A DNA stretch of 64,000 nt from Selenomonadales bacterium UBA7018 (GCA_002448305.1 DJWY01000035.1:2982-66981), one strand, 5' to 3'; positions 22,805 to 64,000 are shown, counted from the stretch's first letter. Program-made: numbers and translations. The notes: generated from the letters alone by a model not told the origin.

Positions 22805-25800
22805 ATGAAAGTCGGAATTGACATCGGCTCCACGACGATTAAGCTTGTAGTCATGGACGAGGAACGGCTTGTATTTAAAAATTATGCGCGGCATTTTTCG
22901 GAGATTGGTTCTGCGCTTACGAATTCTCTAACGTCGCTGAAAAATATAATCGGCGAGAAAACTTTTAAAATCGCGGTTGCAGGCTCAGCGGGTATGGGCA
23001 TTGCTAAAAAAGTTTCGTTGCCCTTTGTGCAAGAGGTTATTGCTTGTCAGACTGCGGTTGAAAAATTTATTCCGCAAACTGATACAGTCGTTGAACTCGG
23101 CGGCGAGGACGCGAAAATTATTTATCTGGGCAATGCGCCTGAAGTCCGTATGAATGGCGTCTGCGCGGGCGGTACGGGTTCATTTATTGACCATATGGCA
23201 AGCTTACTATCAACCGACGCGCTCGGCTTGAATGCTTTAGCGGAAAAGGGCAAGCAAATTTATACTATTGCTTCACGTTGCGGCGTGTTCGCTAAGACTG
23301 ATATTCAAGCCCTTATGAACGACGGCGCGAAAAAGGCGGATATTGCCTTATCGATTTTTCAAGCGGTCGTCAATCAGACGATAGGAAATTTGGCGCAAGG
23401 GCGTCCGATTGCCGGCAACGTCGCATTTTTGGGCGGACCTTTGCACTTCTTGCCCGAACTTAAAAAACGTTTCGTCGAGACACTCGGACTTTCTCAAAAC
23501 GAAGTGGTCGAAACTCCCGACGCTAATTTTTTTGTCGCAACGGGCGCGGCTCTCAGCGACGAGGCTAAAGAAATTTCTGTAGCGACGCTTGAAGATTCTA
23601 TCAAAAAATCCGAAGAAGCCGCCCGCGCTGAAACGCGCAAGGCTGATTTTATTTTATTCAAGGACGCGGCGGACTATGACGCCTTTAAAACTCGTCACGA
23701 TAAAGCCAAAGTTAAACGCGGCGATTTAAGCACTTATAACGGAAAAATTTATATCGGAATTGATGCTGGCTCCACGACTACGAAAATTTGCGCTATCGGC
23801 ACTGATAAACAAATTCTTTATACAAATTACGGCTCAAACGAAGGCGCGCCGCTAAAAATCGTCGTCAATCAGATTCGCGACCTTTACAAAAAAATTCCGT
23901 CGACCGCGCAAATTGGCGGCGTATTCACGACTGGCTATGGCGAAGCGATTGTTAAAGCGGCTCTTCACGCTGACGGCTCCGAAGTCGAAACTTTTGCCCA
24001 TTTAACCGCCGCGCAGGAATTTTGCCCGAACGTTTCATTTGTCCTGGACATTGGCGGGCAGGATATGAAATGCTTTTTCGTCAAGGACGGCACGATTGGC
24101 AATATCACGCTCAACGAAGCTTGTAGCGCGGGTTGCGGTTCGTTTATCCAGAACTTTGCGCATGGTTTAAATATGACAGTTGGCGACTTTGCGAAAAAAG
24201 CTTTGACTTCCGCCGCTCCGGTTGATTTGGGCACGCGCTGTACGGTTTTCATGAATTCAAAAGTTAAGCAGGCGCAAAAGGAAGGCGCGACCGTCAATGA
24301 CATTTCGGCGGGCATTGCGCTTAGCGTCATTAAGAACGCGCTGTTTAAAGTCATGCAACTCAAGAACGTTGAGGACTTGGGGGAAAATATTGTTGTACAG
24401 GGCGGCACTTTTTATAACAATGCTGTCTTGCGTTCGATTGAAGAAATTTTGCATAAAAATGTTATTCGCCCCGACATTGCCGGACTTATGGGCGCGTACG
24501 GCGCGGCGATATTGGCAATTAGGAATTCGGAATTAGGAATTAGGAATGAAAGTTCGTTGCTGACACCTGAACAGTTGGAAAATTTTAACGTCGTGACGAA
24601 AAGTTATCGTTGCGGGCGTTGCGGCAATAACTGCTTGATAACTATGCAAAAATTCCCTGACGGCGGCAAATATTTCACGGGCAATCGTTGTGAACGCGGC
24701 GTTGGAGGGAAACCGAAAACTAATTCCGAAGTTCCGAACGCTTATGCTTATAAATACAAAAGGCTTTTCGATTATGCGCCGCTAGAAAATCCTAAACGCG
24801 GTTCAATCGGCATTCCGAGAGTGCTGAATATCTACGAAGATTATCCTTTCTGGCACACGCTCTTGACGGAACTTGGTTATCGCGTCGAAATTTCTTCTAA
24901 GTCTTCCGCGCAGATTTTCTACAAGGGAATTTCGACAATCCCTAGCGATTCGCTTTGCTATCCCGCGAAACTTGCGCACGGGCACGTTATGGATTTAGTT
25001 GAACGCGGCTTGACGAAAATTTTCTATCCTTGCGAGCCGTATAACTTCGACACGCGCCCCGACAATTTTTATAACTGTCCTATCGTCGCCAGCTATCCCG
25101 AAAACATTCGCAACAATATGGACATTCTCAAGGAGCGCGGCATTAAATTTATTCAGCCGTTCCTGCCCGTTCACGACCTTAAAAAGCTAAAGAAACGCCT
25201 TGTCGAAGAGTTTAAATCCGAAGGCGTGACGGCTAATGAAATTTCGCTTGCCGTCGATAAGGCCGCCGCCGAAATGGAAAATTATCGCCACGACATTAAA
25301 ACTTTTGGCGAAAATCTTTTGAAACGCATTGAGCAAACTGGAGAACAAGCAATTTTGCTCGTCGGTCGTCCCTATCATATCGACCCGGAAATTAATCACG
25401 GTATCGACACAATGATTCAATCTTACGGCTTGCCGATTCTCTCCGAAGACAGCGTTTATCATACCGAAATTGATGCGCCGAAAATTTCCGTTGTCAATCA
25501 ATGGAGCTATCATGCCAGACTTTATTACGCCGCGCAGTTCGTCGCGCAAAATCCCAACGTCACGCTGATTCAGCTAAGTTCGTTCGGTTGCGGGCTTGAC
25601 GCGCTGACTATTGAACAAGTCAAGGAAATTTTAGAAGCGCACGGGAAAATTTACACCATGATTAAGCTTGACGAAGTTTCAAATTTGGGCGCGGCTCGAA
25701 TTAGATTGCGTTCATTGCTCGCCGCGTTGAAAAGAAAAACGCCTGTTGCTTATTCGCCTAAAAAATTTCCCGACCGTCCGCACTTTACGCCCGATTGTAA

Positions 25801-27019
25801 AGCTAAGCATACAATCCTTGCGCCGCAGATGGCACCGATTCATTTTGAATTGATTCAAGCAGTTTTAAACAAATACGGCTACAAAATTTTGATTCCCGCG
25901 CTCCCCGACAAGGCGGCGATTGATTTGGGTCTGCGCTACGTAAATAACGAAATGTGCTATCCGGCAATTTTAGTTGCGGGGCAAATGATTGCGGCTCTAA
26001 AGTCGGGCGAATGCGACCCTGATAACACGTCGATAATTTTATTCCAAACTTGCGGCGGTTGTCGCGCCACGAATTATATTAGCGTTATGCGCCGTGCTTT
26101 GAAATTCGCGGGCTTTGGACAAGTTCCGGTTTTCGCCTGCTACGGACTGCCGGAAGAAACTGACGCCTTTGAACTTAGCCGCGATTGCCTTATGGACGCG
26201 ATTAAAGCTGCGGTTTACGGCGATTTACTTCAGAACGTTACCAATAGAATTCGCCCTTATGAATTGCGACGTGGCGAAACCGATAAACTTTTTGCGCAGT
26301 GGATGACGATTGCTAAAGCCGACCTTGTCAACGGAAATTATTTGACTTATCGGCGCAACGTCAAAGAAATTGTTCGCCAATTTGACGCTATATCTATTGA
26401 TGAAAATCTTATCAAGCCGCGCGTTGGCATTGTTGGAGAAATTTTAGTTAAATATCACCCCGTCGCAAATAATCACTTGGAACGCGTACTTGCCGATGAA
26501 GGCGCGGAAGTAATTCTCCCAGACTTAGTTGATTTTTTCCTTTACTGCGCTTATGACGCGATTGCTAAGCATGAACTTTTAGGCGGCACGCGCAAGGATA
26601 AAATCTTCGCCGAAATTTTTATTCAATTCGTCGAGTTTTTCCGCCGTCCAATGAAAAATGCGCTTAAAGATTCAAAACATTTCCGCGCACCGCATAATAT
26701 CAAGGAAACTGCGCGGCTTGCTAGCAAGTTTTTAAGCAACGGAAATTTAAACGGCGAAGGCTGGCTACTGACTGGCGAAATGGTTTCGCTTATCGAAAAC
26801 GACGTTAGAAATATTGTTGGGTTAAGCCCGTTCGCATGTCTCCCAAATCATATAATTTTGAAGGGCGTTCTTCATAATTTGCGCGAGAGCTACGAAAATG
26901 TTAATGTCGTTGCGATAGATTGTGACGCTGGCTCAAGTGAAGCTAACCAACTAAACAGAATCAAGCTCATGCTAAGTGTCGCGAAGAAAATTTTAGCCGC
27001 AAAGAAAAATTTTAGGTGA
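22805..27019 (+). CDS. Fused double BcrAD/BadFG/HgdC-type ATPase (acyl-CoA dehydratase activase-like) plus large C-terminal DUF2229-like region
   Basis: Two actin-fold ATPase modules: VGIDIGSTTIKLVV..CAGGTGSF and IGIDAGSTTTKICA..ACSAGCGSF. The C-terminal half has CGRCGNNC and repeated halves. The 1404 aa architecture is known from the Firmicute 'CoA-substrate-specific enzyme activase' family. Confidence 0.8.
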   Translation: MKVGIDIGSTTIKLVVMDEERLVFKNYARHFSEIGSALTNSLTSLKNIIGEKTFKIAVAGSAGMGIAKKVSLPFVQEVIACQTAVEKFIPQTDTVVELGGEDAKIIYLGNAPEVRMNGVCAGGTGSFIDHMASLLSTDALGLNALAEKGKQIYTIASRCGVFAKTDIQALMNDGAKKADIALSIFQAVVNQTIGNLAQGRPIAGNVAFLGGPLHFLPELKKRFVETLGLSQNEVVETPDANFFVATGAALSDEAKEISVATLEDSIKKSEEAARAETRKADFILFKDAADYDAFKTRHDKAKVKRGDLSTYNGKIYIGIDAGSTTTKICAIGTDKQILYTNYGSNEGAPLKIVVNQIRDLYKKIPSTAQIGGVFTTGYGEAIVKAALHADGSEVETFAHLTAAQEFCPNVSFVLDIGGQDMKCFFVKDGTIGNITLNEACSAGCGSFIQNFAHGLNMTVGDFAKKALTSAAPVDLGTRCTVFMNSKVKQAQKEGATVNDISAGIALSVIKNALFKVMQLKNVEDLGENIVVQGGTFYNNAVLRSIEEILHKNVIRPDIAGLMGAYGAAILAIRNSELGIRNESSLLTPEQLENFNVVTKSYRCGRCGNNCLITMQKFPDGGKYFTGNRCERGVGGKPKTNSEVPNAYAYKYKRLFDYAPLENPKRGSIGIPRVLNIYEDYPFWHTLLTELGYRVEISSKSSAQIFYKGISTIPSDSLCYPAKLAHGHVMDLVERGLTKIFYPCEPYNFDTRPDNFYNCPIVASYPENIRNNMDILKERGIKFIQPFLPVHDLKKLKKRLVEEFKSEGVTANEISLAVDKAAAEMENYRHDIKTFGENLLKRIEQTGEQAILLVGRPYHIDPEINHGIDTMIQSYGLPILSEDSVYHTEIDAPKISVVNQWSYHARLYYAAQFVAQNPNVTLIQLSSFGCGLDALTIEQVKEILEAHGKIYTMIKLDEVSNLGAARIRLRSLLAALKRKTPVAYSPKKFPDRPHFTPDCKAKHTILAPQMAPIHFELIQAVLNKYGYKILIPALPDKAAIDLGLRYVNNEMCYPAILVAGQMIAALKSGECDPDNTSIILFQTCGGCRATNYISVMRRALKFAGFGQVPVFACYGLPEETDAFELSRDCLMDAIKAAVYGDLLQNVTNRIRPYELRRGETDKLFAQWMTIAKADLVNGNYLTYRRNVKEIVRQFDAISIDENLIKPRVGIVGEILVKYHPVANNHLERVLADEGAEVILPDLVDFFLYCAYDAIAKHELLGGTRKDKIFAEIFIQFVEFFRRPMKNALKDSKHFRAPHNIKETARLASKFLSNGNLNGEGWLLTGEMVSLIENDVRNIVGLSPFACLPNHIILKGVLHNLRESYENVNVVAIDCDAGSSEANQLNRIKLMLSVAKKILAAKKNFR
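24514..24548. repeat. Tandem heptanucleotide array, 5 units (GGCAATT AGGAATT CGGAATT AGGAATT AGGAATG)
   Basis: Read directly from the sequence. It lies in frame inside the 1404-aa activase-like ORF and encodes ..AIRNSELGIRNES.. between the second ATPase module and the C-terminal region. Confidence 0.9.
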
Positions 27020-27281: not shown

Positions 27282-28496
27282 ATGCGGCGGCAAAAATATT
27301 TGACAATCTCTGCAATGATAGCCTATTTGGCGTATATCGGAATGTTTATCCCGCTCTCAACCGATTTATATTTACCCGCTCTGCCAATGATGAGCGAATA
27401 TTTTTCGGCGAGCGAATTTCTTGTCGGCTTGACGCTGACAATTTTTTTCTTTGTGTTTGCAATCAGCATGATATTATTCGGACCACTCAGCGATAAATAC
27501 GGGCGGCGACCGATTTTAATTTTCGGCGCGGCGATATATACGGCGGCGTCATTTGCCTGCGCGGAGGCGTCGAACATTTATTTTTTATTGGCGGGAAGAT
27601 TTTTTCAAGCGGTCGGGTCGGGTGCAGTCATAACGGTTGCGACAACTTTAATCAAAGATTGTTTTCGCGGAAAAGTTATGCGGAAAATTTTGGCGATAAC
27701 TCAAGCGTTGGGAGTAATCGCGCCGATGGTCGCGCCGCTTGTTGGCGGACTTCTTTTGACGTTTACTGATTGGCGCGGGTCTTTTTATCTGCTGACGATT
27801 TTGGGAGCGATAAATTTATTCATAGCGTTTTTATTTTGCGAGACGCTCCCCGAACATAAACGTTATCATGGTGGAATTTTGAATTCAATGACGTTACTGC
27901 TTGAAGTCAGTAAGAAAAAATATTTCATTGCGGTCTTGATAATGTTCGCGTTTTTATCGAAACCTTACATGGCTTATCTAAGTTCCTCTTCGTTTATCTA
28001 CATAGAACATTTCGCGCTGACCGCGCAGGAATATAGTTATTTCTTCGCGGTGAACTCGGCGGCGTCAATCGCGGGACCGATTATATATCTTAAGCTGAAA
28101 AACAATTTATCGAACGTCGCAATGTTGAAATTGTGCTTTGTAGTTGCAATGACGAGCGGGATTTTAGTCTTGAGCATAGGAAAAATAAGTGCGATAATGT
28201 TCTTGCTAGCGTTCTTGCCGTTTACGATAATCGGAGCGGTGTCGCGTCCGTTTGCAATGGAAATTTTGTTGCTTGAGGCGAAAGAAAATGTCGGGACGGC
28301 GGCTTCAGTGATAAATTTCGTGCCGACGCTGTTTGGAAGTTTAGGAATGATGTTGGGGACGTTGCCTTGGGGGAATTTTATCAGCGGCTTAGGGATAATC
28401 ATGACGACGGCAACATTTTTATCGCTAGTGCTGTGGATTTTGATTAAGCAAAGGAAATTTGGCGTGGCAAGTCAGAACGCAAGCGATTTAACGTGA
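27282..28496 (+). CDS. MFS transporter, Bcr/CflA drug-resistance subfamily
   Basis: Twelve hydrophobic segments and the GPLSDKYGRRP loop motif. Confidence 0.85.
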   Translation: MRRQKYLTISAMIAYLAYIGMFIPLSTDLYLPALPMMSEYFSASEFLVGLTLTIFFFVFAISMILFGPLSDKYGRRPILIFGAAIYTAASFACAEASNIYFLLAGRFFQAVGSGAVITVATTLIKDCFRGKVMRKILAITQALGVIAPMVAPLVGGLLLTFTDWRGSFYLLTILGAINLFIAFLFCETLPEHKRYHGGILNSMTLLLEVSKKKYFIAVLIMFAFLSKPYMAYLSSSSFIYIEHFALTAQEYSYFFAVNSAASIAGPIIYLKLKNNLSNVAMLKLCFVVAMTSGILVLSIGKISAIMFLLAFLPFTIIGAVSRPFAMEILLLEAKENVGTAASVINFVPTLFGSLGMMLGTLPWGNFISGLGIIMTTATFLSLVLWILIKQRKFGVASQNASDLT

Positions 28497-28882
28497 GGAG
28501 TGGAAAAATTTTGTATGAATTGACGGTTCGTTCGGCATTTGAGGCGGCGCATTTCATTGACGGTTATGCCGGAAAATGTTCGCGCTTGCACGGGCATAAT
28601 TGGATAATTGAAGCGGTCGTGCGCGGCGAAGAATTAGACAATCTCGGAATGCTGATTGATTTTAAAATTTTGAAGGCGGAACTTAACAAAGTTCTTGAGG
28701 AGTTTGACCACCGCTTTTTGAATGAACTAAAAGTTTTTGCGGAAGAGAATCCGACGGCGGAAAATCTTGCGCGGAAGATTTATAATAAACTTGCGGGGGC
28801 GGAAATTTTCAGCGGCGCGACGAAACTTTATGCCGTGAAAGTTTTTGAAAGCCCTAATTCATGCGTGACGTATTATGAGTAA
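28493..28882 (+). CDS. queD: 6-carboxy-5,6,7,8-tetrahydropterin synthase QueD
   Basis: Contains FEAAHFI...CSRLHGHNW and FDHRFLN. The start may be TTG 28511, after GAGGAG. Confidence 0.88.
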   Translation: MRSGKILYELTVRSAFEAAHFIDGYAGKCSRLHGHNWIIEAVVRGEELDNLGMLIDFKILKAELNKVLEEFDHRFLNELKVFAEENPTAENLARKIYNKLAGAEIFSGATKLYAVKVFESPNSCVTYYE

Positions 28883-29612
28883 AGCGAATGTTATAGAAAT
28901 TTTTTCGTCAGTGCAGGGCGAAGGGAAATATTTAGGTTGCCGACAAATTTTCGTGCGCCTTGCCGATTGCAACTTAAATTGCGCCTATTGCGATACGAAT
29001 TTTATCCGCGCAGATTTTTGCAAGGTCGAAACGGTCGCGGGCGCAATGATTTTCCGCAATGAAAAAAATCCTCTAGACGCCACGCAAGTTGCAGAAATTA
29101 TCAAGCAATTTGCCGACGAAGTGCCGACGCAAGCAATTAGTTTTACGGGCGGCGAACCACTGATTCATTGGCAATTTATTCGCGATGTTGCGAGCGCGGT
29201 AAAAAATTCCGGCGTGAAAATTTTTCTAGAGACGAACGGGACGCTTTACAACGAGTTTGAAAAAATATCGGGCGCGGTCGATATTGTCAGCATGGATATA
29301 AAATTGCCGAGCGTAATCGGACAAAATCTTTTCAGCTTGCACGAAAAATTTTTGCGAGTGGCGCAAGGAAAGGATTTATATGTTAAAATTGTCGTGACGG
29401 GCGAGACAACGCCGGAAGAATTTTTATCGGCAATCGATTTAATTTCACAGGTCGACAAGGAAATTTTATTAATCCTTCAACCTGTGACGCCCGTCGGGAA
29501 AATCTGCGCGGCTTCAGCGGGAAAAATTTTAAACTTACAAACCGCCGCACTCCGTAAATTAAAAAACGTCCGAGTAATTCCACAGACGCATAAATTTATT
29601 AACGTACTTTAG
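28875..29612 (+). CDS. queE: 7-carboxy-7-deazaguanine synthase QueE (radical SAM)
   Basis: Contains EIFSSVQGEG and RLADCNLNCAYCDT. Overlaps the queD stop. Confidence 0.88.
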   Translation: MSKANVIEIFSSVQGEGKYLGCRQIFVRLADCNLNCAYCDTNFIRADFCKVETVAGAMIFRNEKNPLDATQVAEIIKQFADEVPTQAISFTGGEPLIHWQFIRDVASAVKNSGVKIFLETNGTLYNEFEKISGAVDIVSMDIKLPSVIGQNLFSLHEKFLRVAQGKDLYVKIVVTGETTPEEFLSAIDLISQVDKEILLILQPVTPVGKICAASAGKILNLQTAALRKLKNVRVIPQTHKFINVL

Positions 29613-29623
29613 GAGAACTTACA

Positions 29624-30928
29624 ATGAAAAAACATTTCTTCTGCGCGAAAAATATTGAGGATTACCGGAAAGTTTATCGCGAAATTATGGAGAAAGAAAA
29701 ATCCGCCGACGAAACGCAAGAAGATTTTGAGCAGAACTTTTTTCTTAAGCACATAAAAGGTTTATTTAAAGTGCCGCAAGAAGTTTTAGAATCAAGGATT
29801 TATGGCGAGACGGGCATTGAAGGTTTGCGACTGGATTTTAATTTTGGTTTACGACTCGACGTTCCCGAAGGAAATTTTCGCGTTGTGATAAGCGATGCCG
29901 ATACTGGAGAAAAATTTTTCGATAAATACATTTCGGGCGGCAGATTGCTTTCGGTCGAGCAGTATTTTATTCGCTGGCATGTGGAAATTTACCGCGACGA
30001 CAAAAAAATTTTTAATCACACGCTGAATTTGGAAGGGCAATCTGTTCTGCTAGCCTTCAGACTTTGTGGGCTGGGTGATTTGATTGCTTTGTTGCCATTC
30101 GTGCGGGAATTCAAAAAGCGTCACCATTGCGAGTTATCGATTTGCCTGCCCGATTATATGTGCGAATTTGCCGCGCATCTCTATCCTGAAATTTCTCAAG
30201 TCGACAAAATAAATTTTAAAACCTACGCGACCTATTATCCCGTAATGATTATGGCAGATTGTTTGACTGTTCCCGTTGACGCCCGCAATTTACCTTTAGA
30301 GCGTGCGGGCGGCGCGATTTTGGGCTTAGAAACTTTGCCCGCTAAGCCGAAATTTAAACCGACTGCGCCGAAACTTTTTTCCGAGCCTTACGTTTGCATA
30401 GGCGTACAAGCCACGACGCCGCGAAAAGGCTGGCTTTATCCTGGCGGCTGGAAAATTATCGTCGATTATCTGAAAAGTTTGGGCTATCGCGTCTTCTGCA
30501 TTGATAAGAAAAATTTTCAGCAAGAAGGCAAATATTCCGCCGCAATGCCCGATAACGCCGAAGATTTTACCGGCGACTTTTCAATCATGGAGCGGGCGAA
30601 TATGCTTTATCATGCTGATTTTTTTATCGGGCTTTCGAGTGGTCTAGCGTGGCTCGCCGACGCCGTTAATTGTCCGGTCGTAATGATTTGCGGCTTTTCG
30701 CAAGATTGGTTCGAGTTTTACACGCCGTATCGCGTGGCTAATCGGCTCGTCTGCAACGGCTGCTTTAATGATATTCGCGTCAGTTTCATAAAGAAAATTT
30801 GCCCGTATCATAACGGGACAACTCGCGAACTTGAATGCCAGAAGAAAATTTATCCCAGTCAAGTTATTGACGCGATTAATCGTTTGATTGTCGACGAAAA
30901 TTTAACGCCGCCAGTATTGAGGGATTGA
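29624..30928 (+). CDS. TibC/Aah-like protein O-heptosyltransferase (BAHT family), paralogue 1
   Basis: N-terminal block IYGETGIEGLRLDFNFGLRLDVPEGNF. GT9-like GLGDLIALLPF. C-terminal Cys quartet CNGC-x12-C-x11-C, which resembles the TibC iron-finger as I recall it. Confidence 0.7.
   Translation: MKKHFFCAKNIEDYRKVYREIMEKEKSADETQEDFEQNFFLKHIKGLFKVPQEVLESRIYGETGIEGLRLDFNFGLRLDVPEGNFRVVISDADTGEKFFDKYISGGRLLSVEQYFIRWHVEIYRDDKKIFNHTLNLEGQSVLLAFRLCGLGDLIALLPFVREFKKRHHCELSICLPDYMCEFAAHLYPEISQVDKINFKTYATYYPVMIMADCLTVPVDARNLPLERAGGAILGLETLPAKPKFKPTAPKLFSEPYVCIGVQATTPRKGWLYPGGWKIIVDYLKSLGYRVFCIDKKNFQQEGKYSAAMPDNAEDFTGDFSIMERANMLYHADFFIGLSSGLAWLADAVNCPVVMICGFSQDWFEFYTPYRVANRLVCNGCFNDIRVSFIKKICPYHNGTTRELECQKKIYPSQVIDAINRLIVDENLTPPVLRD
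30343..30770 (+). repeat. Direct repeat copy A (3' half of BAHT paralogue 1), near-identical to 31667-32094
   Basis: Aligned by eye at an offset of 1324 nt. There are only scattered substitutions, and 30473-30573 is a perfect 101-nt match to 31797-31897. Confidence 0.85.
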
Positions 30929-30929
30929 A

Positions 30930-32249
30930 ATGAAAAACTTTTACTTTTGCGCACGTGATATTCGCGACTATCTGCGCGGCGTGATGAATACGAGAGAGCT
31001 TGATAATACGCCAAATTTTAAGCCAAATTTCTCTGCTTTAACGGACGCGCCCGCAATACAAGCTTTTCTGTTCGACGTAATGAAAATTTACGAACAGCGA
31101 GAGGAACTTTGCAACGCGCCGATTTATGGCGAAACGGGCATAGACGGCTTGCGGCTGGATTTTAATTTCGGCTTGCGGCTTGACGTGCCCGAAGGAAATT
31201 TTCATGTTCGAATTGGCGACGATAACGGGCAAATTTTCTTCGACAGAGATATTTCCGGCGTGCGCTTGATTTCTGTTGAGAAATATTTTATCCGTTGGCG
31301 CGTGGAAATTTCTTTAGACGGTACAAAAATTTTTAGCCACACGCTTAACCTTGATGGGCAGAAAGTTCTTCTGAACGTCGACAGGAGAAGCGGACTTGGC
31401 GATATTTTAGCTTTCCTGCCGTCGGTTGGGGAATTCAAGCGGAAATTTAATTGCGCGGTTTCAATTTCTCTGCCAGAATATATGCGCGAGTTTGCAGCGA
31501 ATATTTATCCCGAAATTCCGCAGGTCGACGAGATGAGCTTTGACGGCTACGCGATTTATTTTTATAAAATGTACGGCGGCGATTTTCCATTCTGCAAAGT
31601 CGATTTCAGATGTGCGCCGCTTAATCACATGGCAAATTATATCGTCGGGTTAGACGCTTTGCCTATTAAGCCGAAATTCAAACCGACTGCGCCGAAACTT
31701 TTTTCTGAGCCTTACGTTTGCATAGGAATTCAAGCCACGACGCCGCGAAAAGGCTGGCTTTATCCGGACGGCTGGAAAATTATCGTCGATTATCTAAAAA
31801 GTTTGGGCTATCGCGTCTTCTGCATTGATAAGAAAAATTTTCAGCAAGAAGGCAAATATTCCGCCGCAATGCCCGATAACGCCGAAGATTTTACCGGTGA
31901 TTTTTCAATCATGGAGCGGGCGAACATGCTTTATCACGCCGAATTTTTTATCGGCTTGGGCAGCGGGCTTTCATGGCTTGCTGACGCGGTGAATTGTCCA
32001 GTTGTAATGATTTGCGGCTTTTCGCAAGATTGGTTCGAGTTTTACACGCCGTATCGCGTCGTTAATCGGCTTGTCTGCAACGGTTGCTTTAATGATGTTC
32101 GCGCAAATTTTATGTATGACGTTTGCCCGTATCACGGCAGCACAGCTCGCGAACTTGAATGCCAGAAGAAAATTTATCCCAATCAAGTTATCGACGCGAT
32201 TAACCGTTTGATTGCCGATAGGAATTTAATGCCGCCAGTTTTAAAATAA
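30930..32249 (+). CDS. TibC/Aah-like protein O-heptosyltransferase (BAHT family), paralogue 2
   Basis: Same blocks as paralogue 1: IYGETGIDGLRLDFNFGLRLDVPEGNF, GLGDILAFLPS and CNGC-x12-C-x11-C. Starts 1 nt after the paralogue 1 stop. Confidence 0.7.
   Translation: MKNFYFCARDIRDYLRGVMNTRELDNTPNFKPNFSALTDAPAIQAFLFDVMKIYEQREELCNAPIYGETGIDGLRLDFNFGLRLDVPEGNFHVRIGDDNGQIFFDRDISGVRLISVEKYFIRWRVEISLDGTKIFSHTLNLDGQKVLLNVDRRSGLGDILAFLPSVGEFKRKFNCAVSISLPEYMREFAANIYPEIPQVDEMSFDGYAIYFYKMYGGDFPFCKVDFRCAPLNHMANYIVGLDALPIKPKFKPTAPKLFSEPYVCIGIQATTPRKGWLYPDGWKIIVDYLKSLGYRVFCIDKKNFQQEGKYSAAMPDNAEDFTGDFSIMERANMLYHAEFFIGLGSGLSWLADAVNCPVVMICGFSQDWFEFYTPYRVVNRLVCNGCFNDVRANFMYDVCPYHGSTARELECQKKIYPNQVIDAINRLIADRNLMPPVLK
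31667..32094 (+). repeat. Direct repeat copy B (3' half of BAHT paralogue 2)
   Basis: See copy A. The 5' halves of the two genes differ much more, including at synonymous sites. Confidence 0.85.
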
Positions 32250-32251
32250 AA

Positions 32252-32283
32252 ATCCCTCCAAACGCGGAGGGATAATTTTTTTC
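32252..32283. terminator. Bidirectional terminator between BAHT paralogue 2 and convergent thrC
   Basis: ATCCCTCC-aaacgc-GGAGGGAT, with an A-run upstream and AATTTTTTT downstream. Confidence 0.75.
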
Positions 32284-32291
32284 TTCAGATT

Positions 32292-33800
32292 TTATTCGGC
32301 AGCAAACTTCAAAACGCGGTCAGCCATTTCGTCTTTATCGCAAATGTCTTCATGCAAAACTTTAGCGGTAGAAAGTTCAGAAAGATTTCTAGGGATATTA
32401 ACGTTCGTCAAGTCGTTAAGCATTTTGAGTTGCGCGAAGTCATCGACGCCTTCAACCGATTGCCCAAGAGCCGTCAAAACCGCGCTTGTAAATTTGTAGG
32501 GACTGGCGGTCGCGGCACTCAATATCGGCGTGAAGTCGCGAGTTTTGCCGCGATACTTGCTAAGAGCGCAGATTGAAACGGCTGTATGCGTGTCGATAAG
32601 GTAGCTGAAAGAATCGTAAATACGCTTGATAAATTCGCGGGTCTCGTCTTCGGTGACGTATTCGGCATAAAAGATTTTATCGAGTCGCGCCTTGAGTTTC
32701 TTATCGACTTTGTATTTGCCGAGCGTGTTTAATTCGTTCATGTAGCGGTTAACGAGTTTATAATTGCCGTCGCTCTCGTGATAGAGGAGGCGTTCGAGGT
32801 TGCTTGAAATTAAAATGTCCATTGAAGGAGTAATCGTCTTGAAAAATTTTCTAGCGCGGTTGTAAGTGCCGGTCGCGAAAAATTCCGTGAGAACGTTGTT
32901 AATATTTGACGCGCAGATTATTTTCTTGACAGGCAAGCCCATTTTCATTGCGTAGTAGGCGGCGAGGATATTACCGAAATTGCCGGTTGGGACGCTGATA
33001 ATAATTTTTTCGCCGAGCTTAACCTGTTCCGCCTTAACAAATTCAATGTAGCCAGAAAAATAATAAACAATTTGCGGGACAAGCCGCCCCCAGTTGATTG
33101 AGTTCGCCGAACTAAGTTTGACGTTCAGCTTAGCGAGTTCGTCGCGAATTTTCTTATCGTTGAAAATCTTCTTAACGCCATTTTGCGCGTCGTCGAAATT
33201 GCCGCGAACAGCTGTAACGTTTACATTTTTGCCGCGTTGCGTGACCATTTGGAGCCGCTGAATTTTGCTGACGCCGCCGTCGGGATAAAAGACCATAACT
33301 TTAGTCTGTGGCACGTCCGCAAAGCCCGCTAAAGCCGCTTTGCCGGTGTCGCCCGAAGTCGCTACGAGAATTAAAATTTCTTTTGTCTCGCCGACTTTCT
33401 TTAAAGCCATGCGCATAAGGTGCGGCAACATTTGCAGGGCAACATCTTTAAATGCAGAGGTCGGACCGTGCCAAAGTTCCATTGAGCCGACCGGCGCGAC
33501 AGGGTTTTTCGGGTCTTGAATCAAAATCGCAGTGGGCACACGCGACGTAATGTCAAACCAATTATAAGCTAGCTCCGCGCATTCGCCGAGTTCGTCTTCC
33601 GTGTAATCCGTCAAAAATTTTCCGAGTAGCCACGCGGCGCGTTGCTCGTAGGTTTTATTCGTAAGTTCGTTAATTTCTTCGAGCGAAACTTTAGGAATTT
33701 TTTCCGGAACGAAAAGCCCGCCGTCCGCCGCTAAGCCCTGCAGAATTGCTTCCGCTGAATTTATCGGCTGAATTTTCGAGCGCGTACTTGTGTATTTCAT
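32292..33800 (-). CDS. thrC: Threonine synthase (long form)
   Basis: Contains MKYTSTRS..GLAADGGLFVP and the PLP-lysine context GPTSAFKDVALQ. Start moved to ATG 33800 after AAGGAG; the listed 33944 start is upstream read-through. Confidence 0.9.
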   Translation of the reverse strand: MKYTSTRSKIQPINSAEAILQGLAADGGLFVPEKIPKVSLEEINELTNKTYEQRAAWLLGKFLTDYTEDELGECAELAYNWFDITSRVPTAILIQDPKNPVAPVGSMELWHGPTSAFKDVALQMLPHLMRMALKKVGETKEILILVATSGDTGKAALAGFADVPQTKVMVFYPDGGVSKIQRLQMVTQRGKNVNVTAVRGNFDDAQNGVKKIFNDKKIRDELAKLNVKLSSANSINWGRLVPQIVYYFSGYIEFVKAEQVKLGEKIIISVPTGNFGNILAAYYAMKMGLPVKKIICASNINNVLTEFFATGTYNRARKFFKTITPSMDILISSNLERLLYHESDGNYKLVNRYMNELNTLGKYKVDKKLKARLDKIFYAEYVTEDETREFIKRIYDSFSYLIDTHTAVSICALSKYRGKTRDFTPILSAATASPYKFTSAVLTALGQSVEGVDDFAQLKMLNDLTNVNIPRNLSELSTAKVLHEDICDKDEMADRVLKFAAE

Positions 33801-33963
33801 GTAAATTTCTCCTTTGACTTCTAAAAATCGCGCTTGAATTCTACCACACAAAATATTCATTGCCAAATTTTTTGCAAGCCTAAACTTTGCTGAAAAATTT
33901 TTCATGCTGAAAAGCATTTTTATGTTATAATCAGCGGCAAGCATAACTTTTAGGAGTGGTGGA

Positions 33964-56897: not shown

Positions 56898-57455
56898 ATG
56901 AAGTTGATAATCGGTATGACGGGCGCAAGCGGCGTTGTTATCGCCGTAGAACTTTTGCGCCGCCTTAAAGATATTCAAGACGTCGAAACGCATTTAATCA
57001 TAACCGAAGGCGCGGAACTCACTATTCGCGACGAGACGAACTTTGACATTTTCGAGATTCGCCGCCTTGCCGATTTTGTTTACGACGTGAACCAAATGGA
57101 CGCTTCGATTGCAAGCGGAAGTTTTCTCGTTGACGGAATGATTATCGTCCCGTGCACAATGAAAACGCTTGCGGGCATTGCGTCCGGTTATTGCGAAAAT
57201 CTTTTGCTCCGCGCCGCTGACGTTTGCATAAAGGAAAATCGAAAACTTTTGCTCGTGCCGCGTGAAATGCCTTTCAGCAAAATTCACTTGCGCAACATGA
57301 AAGAACTTGCTGACTGCGGCGCAATCATTATGCCGCCCGTTATGACATTTTATAACACGCCAACGACTTTGGAGGCGCAAGTTAATCATATCGTCAATAA
57401 AATCCTACGGCTGTTCAATCTGCCCGATAATATGGTCGAGTGGAAAAAACCTTAA
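56898..57455 (+). CDS. ubiX: Flavin prenyltransferase UbiX
   Basis: Contains MKLIIGMTGASGVVIAVELL and PCTMKTLAGIASG. 185 aa. Confidence 0.9.
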   Translation: MKLIIGMTGASGVVIAVELLRRLKDIQDVETHLIITEGAELTIRDETNFDIFEIRRLADFVYDVNQMDASIASGSFLVDGMIIVPCTMKTLAGIASGYCENLLLRAADVCIKENRKLLLVPREMPFSKIHLRNMKELADCGAIIMPPVMTFYNTPTTLEAQVNHIVNKILRLFNLPDNMVEWKKP

Positions 57456-58294: not shown

Positions 58295-58297
58295 TTT

Positions 58298-61752: not shown

Positions 61753-64000
61753 ATGAGCGATTTGTTTAAAACATTTTCTTTCGACCTGCAACGCTTCGCA
61801 GTTGTCATTGAATCAGTAGCAGGACAATCCGGTCTAATCTCAATAGGACTTGATGAAGTTGGCACTTCTTCAACTACTCGTATGTTTAATAATGTTGAAG
61901 AAATTGCTAACGCTGGCGACACTTCTTTTGACGGAAAATATTTCTGGGACACTTCTGCAACAGATTTTGTCAATGGTCTTAGCTTCGCCGGCGAAAGTGG
62001 CGTTCAACTTTCCATTGAGTTTCAAGAATATCAAGTAACGGGCGTCTCGGCGGCGGGCGGCGATTCCAATGCCGTTTACACTTTCCGCAACATAACCGGA
62101 ATCAATACTATCAGCTTTGATGATTCTTACGTAACAGGCGAAGGCTCCGACACAGTATCGCACGAGATAACCTCTAATGGCATTACAGTTGGTAGCGATA
62201 GCTTCTGGAAGGAAGGCGGCAGTTCATTAACCGTTACTTCAGAAATTCCTTTGACGATTAACGGCTCAAAAGCTGGCATTGGTACTTTCGACTTTTCCAC
62301 CCTTAGCGGCGCATCTACTGTCGCACTCGATAGCTTTGTTGTAGATACCGAAAATGCTTCGGTTACCTCAATCAACCTCGACAGCGGCGTTATGTCTACA
62401 GGCGACCTTAAAGTCGGTGCAACCCTTGAGTTAGACCAAGACGCAATGATATGGAATGTAAACTCAAACGGCGTAAGCGGCGTAATGATTGACGACGGCA
62501 CCGGCGCGACGGCTGAACTTTCTGTCAATAAGCCTTTCATCTATGGCTTTTTGGAAGGCACCACAGCACTTGGAGTACTTAGCGCGGCGGAGGGCGCAGT
62601 TGTCAGCGGTTGGGGTCACGCTACGGAAATCATGCCTGCAAATGCACTGTACGAACCCGCAGTCACTGACGGCACAATCACAGTCGGCGGCGTTGCTCTT
62701 GAATATAGCACGAATGTCAAGAGGGCTTCAGCGGCGGCAATTATCGTCGACAGCGAAGCAGGCGTTCAAGGTTTCGAGTTCGCTAACGAAGGCGACAAAA
62801 TTAAATTCCCGGAAAGTTCCACAACTTACGGTATTCAAACTCCAGATGGCGATACCTTTATTGACGGCGATTTAGATTTTGTTGCTTTGTCTAAAGATGG
62901 TTACACTGCAGAATTAACCGACATAAACACGAGCGGTTCCGGTTCAGCTACAACGAATTCTTATGCAATCGATATTACTCCTGTTTCTACTAAGGTCGCA
63001 TTGACTGATAATCTTGCTCTCAACAACACCAGCAATAACCTAAGCGCAGGCGACGTTATCACCATTGACGGCGACGGCGAAATTACTGCTGTTCGCCTTA
63101 CCACAATCGGCGACGCAATTACCGGCGACATTACAGGCATTGGCGGCGAAAGTGCAATCGGACTTTATCTCGGTGAATCTTCAGCGTCTGTCGCCGCAAG
63201 TTTCGAGGGCATTGGCAGTTCTACCGCTACTATCACCTACCAAAGTGATAACGTCCTTAAAGTCAGCGGCTTAGTCGACGATGACGAAATTAGCATAAAC
63301 AATGTTGACTACCTCTTCACAACGGCCGGCAAAAGTTCCGCTGTCTCTTTCAATGCTGACGGTGACGGACTCACCACTATTACTGCCGGTCAAAGCGCAT
63401 CTATTGACGTTTCCGGCTTGAGCACTGCGACTAACAAAAACGTTATCATTAACGACGGAACGATAACTTCAAACCGCGACTTCACCTACGCCAACAACGC
63501 CAGCGACGACAAAGTTATTTCTGTCAATGACAATGTTGAGCTTTCCCAAACTGGCGACGCTAACAGAATATGGCTCGACAGCGATTCCGCTACCGTTCTC
63601 GGCTCGACACTTAGTAACGTTGCTTTCGGCTCTGAATCAAGCGGCTTTATTGTCACAACTAAAACCGATGACGAATTAGCTATTACCGGCGTCATTATGG
63701 AAGATGGCGACAGTTTCACCGCCGATAGAGGCACTGCTGAAGATATTGTTGTAAGTGGTTTTACAAAGCCCGAAATTACCGGCTTTGCTAGTGCGGTTGC
63801 ATTCAATCGCAATAGTATCGAAGAAGACAACAACACTACTACACCCATAATCGAAATCAGCGGCTATTCAACTGGCGCGGTCATTAATGGTGGCGCAAGC
63901 CTTGCAATCACCAATTACGGCACGCGCGACACCGATACAGACGCTCAACTTACTGTTGCTTTCGACGAAGACGGAAATATTACCAATGTCAGCAACACCA
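61753..64000 (+). CDS. Large acidic Gly/Ser/Thr/Asp/Asn-rich beta-type surface/adhesin-like protein, 5' part (open at window end)
   Basis: Absent from the ORF track because no stop occurs within the window. I translated frame 1 by hand from ATG 61753 to 64000 and found no stop over 749 codons. GGAAGGGAG lies at 61733-61741. N-terminus is MSDLFKTFSFDLQRFAVVIESVAGQSG... I saw no Cys codon, and there is no hydrophobic Sec signal. Confidence 0.75.
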   Translation, partial: MSDLFKTFSFDLQRFAVVIESVAGQSGLISIGLDEVGTSSTTRMFNNVEEIANAGDTSFDGKYFWDTSATDFVNGLSFAGESGVQLSIEFQEYQVTGVSAAGGDSNAVYTFRNITGINTISFDDSYVTGEGSDTVSHEITSNGITVGSDSFWKEGGSSLTVTSEIPLTINGSKAGIGTFDFSTLSGASTVALDSFVVDTENASVTSINLDSGVMSTGDLKVGATLELDQDAMIWNVNSNGVSGVMIDDGTGATAELSVNKPFIYGFLEGTTALGVLSAAEGAVVSGWGHATEIMPANALYEPAVTDGTITVGGVALEYSTNVKRASAAAIIVDSEAGVQGFEFANEGDKIKFPESSTTYGIQTPDGDTFIDGDLDFVALSKDGYTAELTDINTSGSGSATTNSYAIDITPVSTKVALTDNLALNNTSNNLSAGDVITIDGDGEITAVRLTTIGDAITGDITGIGGESAIGLYLGESSASVAASFEGIGSSTATITYQSDNVLKVSGLVDDDEISINNVDYLFTTAGKSSAVSFNADGDGLTTITAGQSASIDVSGLSTATNKNVIINDGTITSNRDFTYANNASDDKVISVNDNVELSQTGDANRIWLDSDSATVLGSTLSNVAFGSESSGFIVTTKTDDELAITGVIMEDGDSFTADRGTAEDIVVSGFTKPEITGFASAVAFNRNSIEEDNNTTTPIIEISGYSTGAVINGGASLAITNYGTRDTDTDAQLTVAFDEDGNITNVSNT

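What the first reader, a model, noticed from the sequence alone, without database searches (positions are those of the whole stretch)
29624..32249. Tandem TibC/Aah-like protein O-heptosyltransferase (BAHT) paralogues with no autotransporter next to them
Seen in sequence: two adjacent ORFs of 434 and 439 aa share three blocks.
- An N-terminal block IYGETGI(E/D)GLRLDFNFGLRLDVPEGNF.
- A GT9-like GLGD..LP segment.
- A C-terminal Cys quartet CNGC-x12-C-x11-C (Cys377/380/393/405 in copy 1).

Established knowledge, from memory: this architecture of an extra N-terminal beta domain, a GT-B heptosyltransferase and a CX2C..C..C iron-finger is that of TibC/Aah. NCBI names the family 'autotransporter strand-loop-strand O-heptosyltransferase', and I believe the model is TIGR04414. 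In E. coli these enzymes sit immediately next to the AIDA-I/TibA-type autotransporter that they hyper-heptosylate in the cytoplasm.

Here the pair is wedged between queE and a convergent thrC. No autotransporter is in the window. The gene is duplicated, and the rest of the genome context looks Firmicute-like rather than proteobacterial. The substrate, and possibly the donor sugar, is therefore unknown. This may be an undescribed protein-glycosylation system.
Basis: partly seen in the sequence, partly recalled or inferred. Interest (0 to 1): 0.72.

Follow-up and report, generated by a model that had tools for sequence, protein, structure and literature searches.

The report
Tandem protein heptosyltransferases in a rumen Selenomonad
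Two adjacent genes in a rumen Selenomonadaceae bacterium encode genuine TibC/Aah-type enzymes that attach heptose sugars to surface proteins; they lack the usual autotransporter neighbour, and their target may be a giant (up to about 5,500 aa in a relative) RTX-type secreted protein, but that link is only circumstantial.

Summary
ORFs 29624-30928 (434 aa) and 30930-32249 (439 aa) are 67% identical. Both pass NCBIfam TIGR04414 (362 and 339 bits; cutoff 200). Both keep every TibC catalytic, donor-binding and iron-finger residue. The BAHT1 model superposes on TibC at TM 0.89.

The organism is a Selenomonadaceae (Negativicutes, a diderm Firmicute with LPS genes in the window). NCBI already gives close relatives the family name, so the enzyme identity is not new.

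What is new is the context:
- In this clade the genes form a cassette of 0-6 copies, always directly after queD-queE and never directly next to a Pfam-recognisable autotransporter.
- Distant BAHTs usually sit beside a verified autotransporter.
- The paralogues differ in the N-terminal extension and N-lobe. Their donor-binding C-lobe is 95% identical, partly through recent gene conversion.
In five other loci a member lies directly upstream of queD-queE-BAHT.
- One locus has giant-queD-queE with no BAHT, so the link is circumstantial.

An unlinked autotransporter remains a serious rival. Unlinked BAHTs are already known. Substrate and donor sugar are untested. Interest is moderate.

The parts
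29624..30928 (+). BAHT1, a protein O-heptosyltransferase of the TibC/Aah family (434 aa).
   Evidence: TIGR04414 at 362 bits against a cutoff of 200. Pfam PF21129 and PF01075. TibC in the PDB at E=2e-74. Conserved residues D152, K268, R324, W343 and C377/380/393/405. AF2 model pLDDT 85, superposing on TibC 4rap at TM 0.89 and rmsd 2.6 A.
30930..32249 (+). BAHT2, the paralogous O-heptosyltransferase (439 aa). It starts 1 nt after the BAHT1 stop codon.
   Evidence: TIGR04414 at 339 bits. Conserved residues D158, K274, R330, W349 and C383/386/399/411. 67% identical to BAHT1. Its orthologue is L010 copy 2.
28493..28882 (+). queD (6-carboxytetrahydropterin synthase), the first gene of the conserved queD-queE-BAHT block.
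   Evidence: TIGR03367 at 104 bits against a cutoff of 89. A queE-like gene directly precedes the BAHT array in all 11 Selenomonad-clade loci where the upstream sequence is visible; queD is also visible in 10 of them (L013 starts at queE).
28875..29612 (+). queE-like radical SAM gene. It overlaps queD by 8 nt and ends 11 nt before BAHT1.
   Evidence: The best NCBIfam matches are all QueE families, but all fall below cutoff (79.6 bits against 260). Pfam gives Radical_SAM and Fer4_12.
29610..29623 (+). queE/BAHT1 junction. A TAGGAG Shine-Dalgarno sequence overlaps the queE stop codon.
   Evidence: Read directly from the sequence. No terminator-like site lies in the 11-nt queE/BAHT1 junction.
30473..30573 (+). 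Core of a gene-conversion tract. This 101-nt run is identical to 31797-31897 in BAHT2.
   Evidence: BAHT1 and BAHT2 are 97.5% identical in DNA across alignment columns 281-320. BAHT1 is only 67.5% identical to its own orthologue L010_c1 over the same columns.
32252..32273 (.). Bidirectional intrinsic-terminator hairpin between BAHT2 and the convergent thrC.
   Evidence: 8-9 bp stem with 5 GC pairs and T-runs on both strands.
61753..64000 (+). N-terminal 749 aa of a giant RTX-type secreted protein. The ORF is still open at the window end. It is the leading candidate acceptor, but this is unproven.
   Evidence: No Pfam or NCBIfam hit. The N-terminal motif MSDLFK.F.FDLQRF is conserved. In L099, a scaffold from the same organism, the ORF continues to about 985 aa, then a (DSDA)n repeat, then a scaffold gap, then a C-terminal region with PF00353 at 38.6 bits. 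That C-terminus is homologous (E down to 1e-80) to giants encoded directly upstream of queD-queE-BAHT arrays in other species.

Best explanation
Both ORFs are functional cytoplasmic protein O-heptosyltransferases of the BAHT (TibC/Aah) family, in a rumen Selenomonadaceae bacterium.

**Shown**
- Family membership.
- A TibC-like fold.
- An intact catalytic Asp, intact Lys/Arg/Trp donor-binding residues and an intact Cys4 iron finger.
- A tight, apparently co-transcribed queD-queE-BAHT1-BAHT2 unit that ends in a terminator.
- The unit is a cassette of 0-6 copies in this clade and lies directly after queD-queE in all 11 loci where the upstream sequence is visible.

**Inferred**
- The enzymes assemble through the iron finger into homo- or hetero-oligomers.
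- They take ADP-glycero-manno-heptose from the LPS core pathway.
- They add heptose to Ser/Thr on a large, beta-rich surface protein before it is exported.
- The target is encoded elsewhere, not next door.
- The leading candidate is the giant RTX-repeat protein family (5,556 aa in the one relative with an uninterrupted gene call; length unknown in this organism) whose N-terminus is ORF 61753. A type I secretion substrate waits in the cytoplasm before export, so it would be accessible to these enzymes.
- The paralogues share a nearly identical donor-binding C-lobe but differ in the N-terminal extension and N-lobe. They probably use one donor and cover different acceptor sites or different proteins.
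For: **Enzyme identity**
- TIGR04414 at 362 and 339 bits against a cutoff of 200, with PF21129 and PF01075.
- TibC in the PDB at E=2e-74.
- D110, K230, R286, W305 and C339/342/358/370 of TibC (defined in PMC4358343) are invariant in both paralogues and in all 120 homologues.
- The model superposes on TibC at TM 0.89. LPS GT9 enzymes reach only 0.4-0.6.

**Operon structure**
- Gene junctions of -8, 11 and 1 nt, embedded ribosome-binding sites, and a terminator only after BAHT2.

**Cassette behaviour**
- queD-queE-BAHT arrays of 1-6 copies are seen in L007, L009, L010, L011, L013, L015, L019, L020 and L105, and zero copies in L107, with at least four different flank arrangements.

**Domain divergence between the paralogues**
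- N-terminal extension 28%, N-lobe 47%, C-lobe 95% identity, with a gene-conversion tract in the C-lobe.

**Candidate target**
- ORF 61753 and the giants are the two ends of one family.
- RTX repeats score above cutoff.
- The proteins are 20-23% Ser+Thr.
- A giant lies directly upstream of queD-queE-BAHT in L009/L018, L011, L015, L019 and L105.
Against: - No biochemical evidence exists.
- L107 has giant-queD-queE with no BAHT at the site. The giant/queDE synteny therefore exists without BAHT, and the adjacency may be historical.
- In the window the giant gene is 30 kb from the BAHT pair. In L103 and L106 the giant is not near a BAHT.
- The giant's fold is unresolved. The AF2 model has pLDDT 55 and no Foldseek match, so there is no evidence for the beta-helix that TibC binds.
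- All known BAHT substrates are type V secreted proteins (PMC8151025).
- No ADP-heptose gene lies in the window. A GmhA search of the sequence held found none in Selenomonad loci.
- The TibC thumb-tip residues F265/V266 are K/Y here, so a dodecamer is not assured.
- No T1SS ABC or MFP gene was seen near the giants.
Confidence: 0.6

Rival explanations
1. The enzymes are ordinary BAHTs whose substrates are conventional type V autotransporters encoded elsewhere in the genome. The giant RTX protein is an unrelated neighbour of queD-queE in some species.
For: - All characterised BAHT targets are autotransporters, and BAHTs can be unlinked from their target (PMC8151025).
- Negativicutes carry many autotransporters (PMC7549365).
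- Of 52 distant BAHT loci with enough flank, 28 have a complete Ser/Thr-rich ORF ending in F/W/Y within 3 kb. All 6 sampled are Pfam autotransporter, AIDA or pertactin proteins.
- L107 keeps giant-queD-queE without any BAHT.
- In L007 a 1045-aa ORF ending ...FKFQKEF ends about 1.9 kb upstream of queD.
Against: - No Selenomonad-clade array has a Pfam-recognisable autotransporter beside it.
- The L007 ORF has no Autotransporter, AIDA or Pertactin hit.
- No autotransporter lies in the 64 kb window.
- Five loci place the giant directly upstream of the block.
Confidence: 0.3
2. The genes are not protein glycosyltransferases here. They act as LPS-core or other glycolipid heptosyltransferases that happen to resemble TibC.
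For: They belong to the GT9 superfamily. Lipid A genes lie in the same window. A Quinella genome paper listed the GT9 enzymes of those genomes only as LPS heptosyltransferases (PMC9585023).
Against: - LPS heptosyltransferase HMMs score 12-22 bits against cutoffs of 135-467, while TIGR04414 scores 339-362.
- The TibC-specific beta-barrel and iron finger, which serve oligomerisation and protein-substrate binding, are both present and conserved.
- TM to TibC is 0.89, against about 0.5 to WaaC/WaaF.
Confidence: 0.04
3. The constant queD-queE linkage is functional. The BAHT cassette would act on, or together with, a 7-deazaguanine-pathway product rather than doing simple protein heptosylation.
For: - A queE-like gene directly precedes the array in all 11 Selenomonad-clade loci with visible upstream sequence, and queD is visible in 10 of them, even though the outer flanks differ.
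- The junctions look translationally coupled.
- The QueE-like protein falls below every QueE equivalog cutoff.
- No queC or queF gene is adjacent.
Against: - L107 keeps queD-queE with no BAHT.
- L017 has a BAHT with no queDE.
- QueD passes its equivalog cutoff.
- The BAHT donor and catalytic residues are those of an ADP-heptose enzyme.
- A single ancestral insertion downstream of queE explains the pattern.
Confidence: 0.03

Closest known systems
TibC (ETEC H10407) and Aah (E. coli 2787): the bacterial autotransporter heptosyltransferase (BAHT) family, NCBIfam TIGR04414.
   Same: - Equivalog-level HMM score.
- 36-38% identity to TibC in the structural alignment.
- The same beta-barrel, atypical GT-B and iron-finger architecture.
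- Identical catalytic Asp, identical Lys/Arg/Trp donor residues and identical Cys4.
- TM 0.89 to the crystal structure.
- Ser at the TibC Pro300 position in BAHT1, as in Aah.
   Different: - The host is a diderm Firmicute rather than a proteobacterial pathogen.
- An extra N-terminal segment of about 60 aa, predicted as two helices, is absent from the TibC alignment.
- The genes form tandem arrays of 0-6 copies with divergent N-lobes.
- They sit after queD-queE rather than beside an autotransporter.
- The TibC thumb-tip residues Phe265/Val266 are not conserved.
- BAHT2 has Gly at the stereoselectivity position.
BimC of Burkholderia pseudomallei, a BAHT-family protein linked to the trimeric autotransporter BimA.
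   Same: It is a BAHT-family member outside the AIDA/TibA paradigm, which shows the family is used with more than one kind of partner (PMC6439308 and PMC11499645, listed).
   Different: BimC is still paired with a type V protein and is a single-copy gene. I made no sequence comparison here.
HMW1C-like cytoplasmic N-glycosyltransferases (NGTs).
   Same: They also glycosylate large secreted adhesins in the cytoplasm before export, and they may be linked to or unlinked from their target (PMC8151025).
   Different: They are an unrelated enzyme family, form N-linkages with hexose, and have type V substrates.
SdgA/SdgB of Staphylococcus aureus. This comparison is from my own knowledge and was not tested here.
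   Same: Two adjacent paralogous cytoplasmic glycosyltransferases decorate Ser in the acidic Ser-Asp repeats of large surface adhesins. This is an analogy for the (DSDA)n tract found in this organism's giant protein.
   Different: They are GT4-type GlcNAc transferases in a monoderm and have no homology to BAHTs. The acidic repeat is not a general feature of the giant family.

Membership tests
BAHT (TibC/Aah; NCBIfam TIGR04414) | The full-length family HMM score is above the curated cutoff. | tested here: met
   362.2 and 338.6 bits against a cutoff of 200, covering profile positions 5-374 of 374.
BAHT (TibC/Aah; NCBIfam TIGR04414) | An N-terminal flattened beta-barrel domain (Pfam TibC_1st). 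| tested here: met
   PF21129 at 52.6 and 48.1 bits against a cutoff of 27. The BAHT1 model shows beta strands across residues 69-133.
BAHT (TibC/Aah; NCBIfam TIGR04414) | Catalytic base Asp110 and the donor-binding residues Lys230, Arg286 and Trp305. | tested here: met
   D152/K268/R324/W343 in BAHT1 and D158/K274/R330/W349 in BAHT2. All are invariant in 122 of 122 sequences (the two paralogues plus 120 homologues). The residues are defined in PMC4358343.
BAHT (TibC/Aah; NCBIfam TIGR04414) | A Cys4 iron finger (TibC Cys339/342/358/370). | tested here: met
   All four Cys align and are invariant in 122 of 122 sequences. Iron binding itself cannot be tested here.
BAHT (TibC/Aah; NCBIfam TIGR04414) | The overall fold superposes on the TibC crystal structure. 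| tested here: met
   AF2 model pLDDT 85. Against 4rap_D: TM 0.89, rmsd 2.6 A, 377 columns, E=1e-35. The next-best fold class, LPS GT9 enzymes, reaches TM 0.4-0.6.
BAHT (TibC/Aah; NCBIfam TIGR04414) | [quoted passage not shown] | tested here: inconclusive
   The iron finger is conserved. The thumb-tip residues Phe265/Val266 are Lys/Tyr here, and Phe368 is Leu. Oligomeric state cannot be tested with these tools.
BAHT (TibC/Aah; NCBIfam TIGR04414) | A cognate autotransporter substrate, usually encoded next to the enzyme. | tested here: not met
   No autotransporter lies in the 64 kb window, and none lies beside any Selenomonad-clade array. Adjacency is typical but not obligatory (PMC8151025). 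Whether an autotransporter elsewhere is the substrate cannot be tested.
BAHT (TibC/Aah; NCBIfam TIGR04414) | The donor ADP-glycero-manno-heptose is available in the cell. | not testable with these tools
   No heptose-pathway gene lies in the window, and tblastn with GmhA found none in the Selenomonad loci held. The indirect evidence is weak: Quinella genomes are reported to have GT9 LPS heptosyltransferases (PMC9585023), V. parvula has an annotated WaaF (PMC5491611), and a V. parvula GT9 structure exists (3tov).
LPS core heptosyltransferases (WaaC/WaaF/WaaQ) | The family HMM score is above cutoff. | tested here: not met
   11.5-22.5 bits against cutoffs of 134.6-467.
RTX / type I secretion substrate (applied to the ORF 61753 giant) | Gly/Asp-rich nonapeptide Ca-binding repeats near the C-terminus. 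| tested here: met
   PF00353 at 38.6 bits (cutoff 23) at residues 624-660 of the 742-aa C-terminal gene in L099. P0135 scores 35.5 and P0137 scores 26.4; P0138 and the L009 giant fall below cutoff. This rests on the inference that ORF 61753 and that C-terminus are one gene split by a scaffold gap.
RTX / type I secretion substrate (applied to the ORF 61753 giant) | Dedicated ABC transporter, membrane-fusion protein and TolC genes nearby. | tested here: not met
   None appears among the called genes around the giants in L018, L099, L103, L105 or L107. T1SS genes can be unlinked, so this is weak evidence.
Classical autotransporter (applied to the ORF 61753 giant) | A C-terminal autotransporter beta-domain, or AIDA or pertactin passenger repeats. 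| tested here: not met
   No PF03797, PF16168 or PF03212 hit in the window fragment, the L099 C-terminus, the L009 giant or P0135-P0143. Neighbours of distant BAHTs do have these domains.

The most novel reading that the evidence does not exclude
In rumen Selenomonadaceae, expandable arrays of BAHT paralogues heptosylate a giant RTX-repeat surface protein (up to about 5,500 aa) that is exported by type I secretion. This would be the first BAHT substrate outside type V secretion. Each paralogue's divergent N-lobe and N-terminal extension would be tuned to a different region of a very long, non-repetitive acceptor.
Probability: 0.3. Interest if true: 0.7.

Novelty: new variant of a known kind. 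Interest (0 to 1): 0.48.

Why it matters
BAHTs have so far been studied as virulence-associated modifiers of proteobacterial autotransporters. This locus shows the same catalytic machinery in commensal diderm Firmicutes of the rumen. There it forms copy-number-variable arrays that are detached from autotransporters and repeatedly sit next to a giant RTX-type protein.

If the giant is the acceptor, cytoplasmic O-heptosylation would extend to type I secretion substrates. The arrays would then be a natural system for studying how acceptor specificity evolves while donor binding is held constant by gene conversion.

If the acceptor is instead an unlinked autotransporter, the finding is a routine extension of a known family to a new taxon.

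Tried and rejected
1. **Beta-helix fold for ORF 61753.** The AF2 model from a 5-sequence alignment had mean pLDDT 55. Only residues ~190-520 were moderately confident, and they were all-beta. Foldseek against the PDB gave no match at E<=1e-3 and TM<=0.12. No structural conclusion is possible.
2. **Ser/Gly at the TibC Pro300 stereoselectivity position as a stable specialisation of the paralogues.** Rejected. L010_c2, the orthologue of BAHT2, has Ser, and the residue varies within arrays.
3. **Acidic (DSDA)n repeats as a family-wide acceptor feature.** Rejected. They occur only in this organism's giants, plus a short (TETD)n tract in L106.
4. **Internal repeats in the giants.** BLAST self-comparison found none.
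5. **Functional queDE-BAHT coupling.** Disfavoured, because L107 has queDE without BAHT and L017 has BAHT without queDE.
6. **Heptose pathway.** tblastn with an E. coli GmhA sequence recalled from memory hit only L076, a distant locus, and nothing in the window or the Selenomonad loci. A literature search for Selenomonas plus ADP-heptose found nothing relevant.
7. **Full-length giant sequences.** Every database hit is an N-terminal or a C-terminal fragment. I never saw the N-terminus of the 5,556-aa L018 giant.
8. **My own error.** Searches failed because I trimmed the wrong end of two minus-strand ORFs. One search corrected this.
9. **RNA genes.** No tRNA and no Rfam family is present in the window.
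10. **Literature precedent.** I found no paper on BAHTs in Negativicutes or on BAHTs acting on RTX/T1SS proteins.
Full report
**1. Observation**

They are 67% identical over their full length. The three shared blocks are all present: the IYGETGI(E/D)GLRLDF... block, the GLGD..LP segment and the CNGC-x12-C-x11-C quartet. Upstream lie queD (TIGR03367, 104 bits against a cutoff of 89) and a queE-like radical SAM gene. That gene's best hits are all QueE families, but every one is below cutoff. Downstream lies a convergent thrC. No tRNA or Rfam element is present in the window.

**2. Enzyme identity**

- Both proteins hit NCBIfam TIGR04414, 'autotransporter strand-loop-strand O-heptosyltransferase', at 362 and 339 bits against a cutoff of 200, end to end. 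LPS heptosyltransferase models score only 12-22 bits against cutoffs of 135-467.
- Pfam finds the TibC N-terminal domain and a GT9 domain.
- TibC crystal chains match at E=2e-74 over residues 62-421.
- The TibC structure paper defines the key residues: Asp110 as catalytic base; Thr226, Lys230, Arg286 and Trp305 as donor contacts; Cys339/342/358/370 as the iron finger; Pro300 (Ser294 in Aah) as the heptose stereoselectivity determinant; Phe265/Val266 as the thumb tip (PMC4358343).
- When these are mapped onto both paralogues and 120 homologues, the Asp, Lys, Arg, Trp and all four Cys are invariant in 122 of 122 sequences (the two paralogues plus 120 homologues). Position 300 is Ser in BAHT1 and Gly in BAHT2. 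The thumb-tip residues are not conserved.
- An AlphaFold model of BAHT1 (pLDDT 85, pTM 0.85) superposes on TibC at TM 0.89 and rmsd 2.6 A. LPS GT9 enzymes reach only TM 0.4-0.6.
- The first ~60 residues have no TibC counterpart and are predicted as two helices.

On every sequence and structure criterion these are BAHT members.

**3. Organism and prior annotation**

The closest relatives come from ruminant Selenomonadaceae or Selenomonadales MAGs and from Quinella. NCBI already names several of them with the family name. The window also carries PagL, Skp/OmpH, LpxD and a lipid A acyltransferase. The host is therefore a diderm Firmicute with LPS. Autotransporters are documented in another Negativicute, Veillonella parvula (PMC7549365). 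[quoted passage not shown] The missing neighbour is therefore not unprecedented in itself.

**4. Local organisation**

queD overlaps queE by 8 nt. queE ends 11 nt before BAHT1, and a TAGGAG ribosome-binding site overlaps its stop codon. BAHT2 starts 1 nt after the BAHT1 stop codon, behind a GAGGGA site. A bidirectional hairpin terminator at 32252-32273 follows BAHT2, and nothing comparable lies at the gene junctions. Co-transcription is inferred from this, not shown.

**5. Comparative genomics of the enzyme**

- Across the genome and metagenome loci of the Selenomonad clade (55% identity or more), the pattern queD-queE-BAHT×n recurs. The copy number is 1 in L007 and L105, at least 1 in L019, 2 in the window, L010, L013 and L020, 3 in L009/L018, at least 4 in L011, and about 5-6 in L015, where one copy is split.
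- The outer flanks differ. I saw MFS...thrC, giant...aldo-keto reductase, CsgG-like upstream in L007, and another arrangement in L010.
- L107 has the giant...aldo-keto reductase flanks with queD-queE but no BAHT.
- L017 has a single BAHT with no queDE.
- The simplest reading is a copy-number-variable cassette inserted once downstream of queE, rather than a functional tie to queuosine synthesis.
- A rough NJ tree, without support values, separates a BAHT1 type from a BAHT2 type. The lineage-specific expansions fall on the BAHT1 side.
- The window pair is orthologous, copy for copy, to the L010 pair. The exception is a tract (alignment columns 281-320, with a 101-nt exact run at 30473/31797) where the two window genes are 97.5% identical while BAHT1 is only 67.5% identical to its own orthologue. 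That is recent gene conversion.
- Identity between BAHT1 and BAHT2 by TibC domain is: N-terminal extension 28%, beta-barrel 75%, N-lobe 47%, linker 86%, C-lobe 95%, iron finger 66%. The donor-binding side is homogenised and the N-terminal and N-lobe side has diverged.

**6. Contrast with the rest of the family**

A metagenome scan found at least 574 BAHT-encoding stretches. Of the 80 loci kept, 52 have at least 3 kb of flank on one side. Of those 52, 37 have a Ser/Thr-rich ORF of 700 aa or more within 3 kb, and 28 of these ORFs are complete and end in F/W/Y. All six that I sampled are Pfam autotransporter beta-domain, AIDA or pertactin proteins. No Selenomonad-clade array has such a neighbour. 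The nearest candidate is a 1045-aa ORF in L007 ending ...FKFQKEF, and it has no autotransporter-family hit.

**7. The ORF at 61753**

- It is open for 749 codons to the window end, is 23% Ser+Thr, has no signal peptide by eye, and has no Pfam or NCBIfam hit.
- An exhaustive HMMER search of 1.84 billion representatives found only 13 relatives. All are fragments. The eleven that include the N-terminus all carry a FDLQRF motif, most as MSDL[FL]K.F[SA]FDLQRF.
- L099 is a scaffold from the same organism, identical to the window over all 2,248 shared bases. There the ORF runs to about residue 985, enters a (DSDA)n tract, and meets a 100-N gap. A frame on the same strand emerges from the gap and ends after a C-terminal region that carries RTX repeats (PF00353 at 38.6 bits, cutoff 23).
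- That C-terminal ~700 aa is 31-34% identical (E from 1e-64 to 1e-80) to the C-termini of P0134-P0144. This is the family of the 5,556-aa protein encoded directly upstream of queD-queE-BAHT×3 in L018/L009.
- L103 independently shows the same build. A gene starts MKNFTFDLQRFAE, stays open for 2,655 aa to a gap, then runs 2,546 aa to the RTX-type C-terminus.
- I infer that ORF 61753 is the N-terminus of a member of this giant family. This is unproven, because both scaffolds carry a gap.
- A giant lies directly upstream of queD-queE-BAHT in L009/L018, L011, L015, L019 and L105. It lies upstream of queD-queE without BAHT in L107. It lies upstream of queD at a contig end in L104. It lies elsewhere in the window/L099, in L103 and in L106.

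**8. Interpretation**

That these are active BAHT-type protein O-heptosyltransferases is well supported; I put it at about 0.9. That their acceptor is a large exported Ser/Thr-rich surface protein encoded away from them follows from what the family does.

The giant RTX-type protein is the best candidate I can name, at about 0.3-0.35. It is the only large Ser/Thr-rich secreted protein seen repeatedly beside the cassette. It also lacks a Sec signal, so it would wait in the cytoplasm where BAHTs act.

The link is circumstantial, however:
- The giant-queDE synteny exists without BAHT.
- The giant's fold is unresolved.
- No T1SS genes were seen nearby.
- All known BAHT targets are type V proteins.

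An unlinked autotransporter is nearly as likely, at about 0.3. The donor is most likely ADP-heptose, given the invariant donor contacts, but no heptose-pathway gene could be examined.

**9. Novelty and score**

The enzyme family and even the annotation are already known. Four things are new:
- the clade-specific N-terminal extension;
- the expandable array with a homogenised donor lobe and diverged acceptor-side regions;
- the fixed position after queD-queE;
- the replacement of the usual autotransporter neighbour by a giant RTX-type protein in several species.

I found no literature on BAHTs in Negativicutes or on non-T5SS substrates. I rate it a new variant of a known kind, with moderate interest (0.48).

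Noticed in passing
window 61753-61800; also L103 nt ~1941, and L099 (minus strand) at the starts of two ORFs: The giant-protein family has a strictly conserved N-terminal motif, M(S)DL[FL]K.F[SAT]FDLQRF followed by A/D/V/E. It resembles the L27/Prp cysteine-protease cleavage motif MLxx(D/N)LQ(F/L)F'A (PMC9405229). The motif may mark a Prp-processed N-terminal propeptide on a giant secreted protein.
   Followed up: partly
L099, about 2.9-3.1 kb and 7.4-8.7 kb downstream of the ORF 61753 start (beyond the window end): Long (DSDA)n and (DTDD)n acidic Ser/Thr-Asp tracts (80 to over 130 aa) interrupt the giant gene and coincide with scaffold gaps. A second large ORF with the same FDLQRF motif (…NSFVFDLQRFD…) follows directly. 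The acidic tracts are specific to this organism, not to the family.
   Followed up: partly
window 30473-30573 and 31797-31897: A 101-nt exact repeat between the two BAHT genes marks a recent gene-conversion tract in the donor-binding C-lobe.
   Followed up: yes
window 28493-29612: queD and a queE-like gene stand alone, with no adjacent queC or queF. The QueE-like protein falls below every NCBIfam QueE equivalog cutoff (79.6 bits against 260). Its constant linkage to BAHT arrays is unexplained beyond shared ancestry.
   Followed up: partly
L107 14374-16707, compared with L105 17277-21006 and L018 6182-12750: The same chromosomal site carries 0, 1 or 3 BAHT copies between queE and an aldo-keto reductase gene. 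This is a clean presence/absence polymorphism, useful for comparative or phenotype studies.
   Followed up: yes
window 57452-59752 (minus strand): An Orn/Lys/Arg decarboxylase sits next to a spermidine synthase, beside the sigma factor and SepF genes and the giant gene. From my own knowledge, Selenomonas lysine decarboxylase makes the cadaverine that links peptidoglycan to the outer-membrane tether. The same gene group neighbours the giant in L103.
   Followed up: no
window 22805-27019: A 1404-aa fusion protein combines two acyl-CoA dehydratase activase (BcrAD/BadFG) domains with DUF2229. It lies just upstream of the MFS-queD-queE-BAHT unit.
   Followed up: no
L007 3809-8809: In the closest single-copy relative, three genes precede queD: a 1045-aa Ser/Thr/Gly/Asn-rich ORF ending ...FKFQKEF (outer-membrane-protein-like, with no Pfam or NCBIfam hit), a 362-aa ORF of unknown function, and a CsgG-like lipoprotein. 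This may be another surface-protein candidate.
   Followed up: partly
window 38429-39697 (minus strand) and 9141-10316 (minus strand): A 422-aa ORF has no Pfam hit, and a 391-aa ORF has only a marginal DUF2939 match. Both functions are unknown.
   Followed up: no
window 32292-33944 (minus strand): The mechanical thrC ORF is 550 aa, but the gene called on identical public contigs is 502 aa. The first 48 codons are probably not translated.
   Followed up: no
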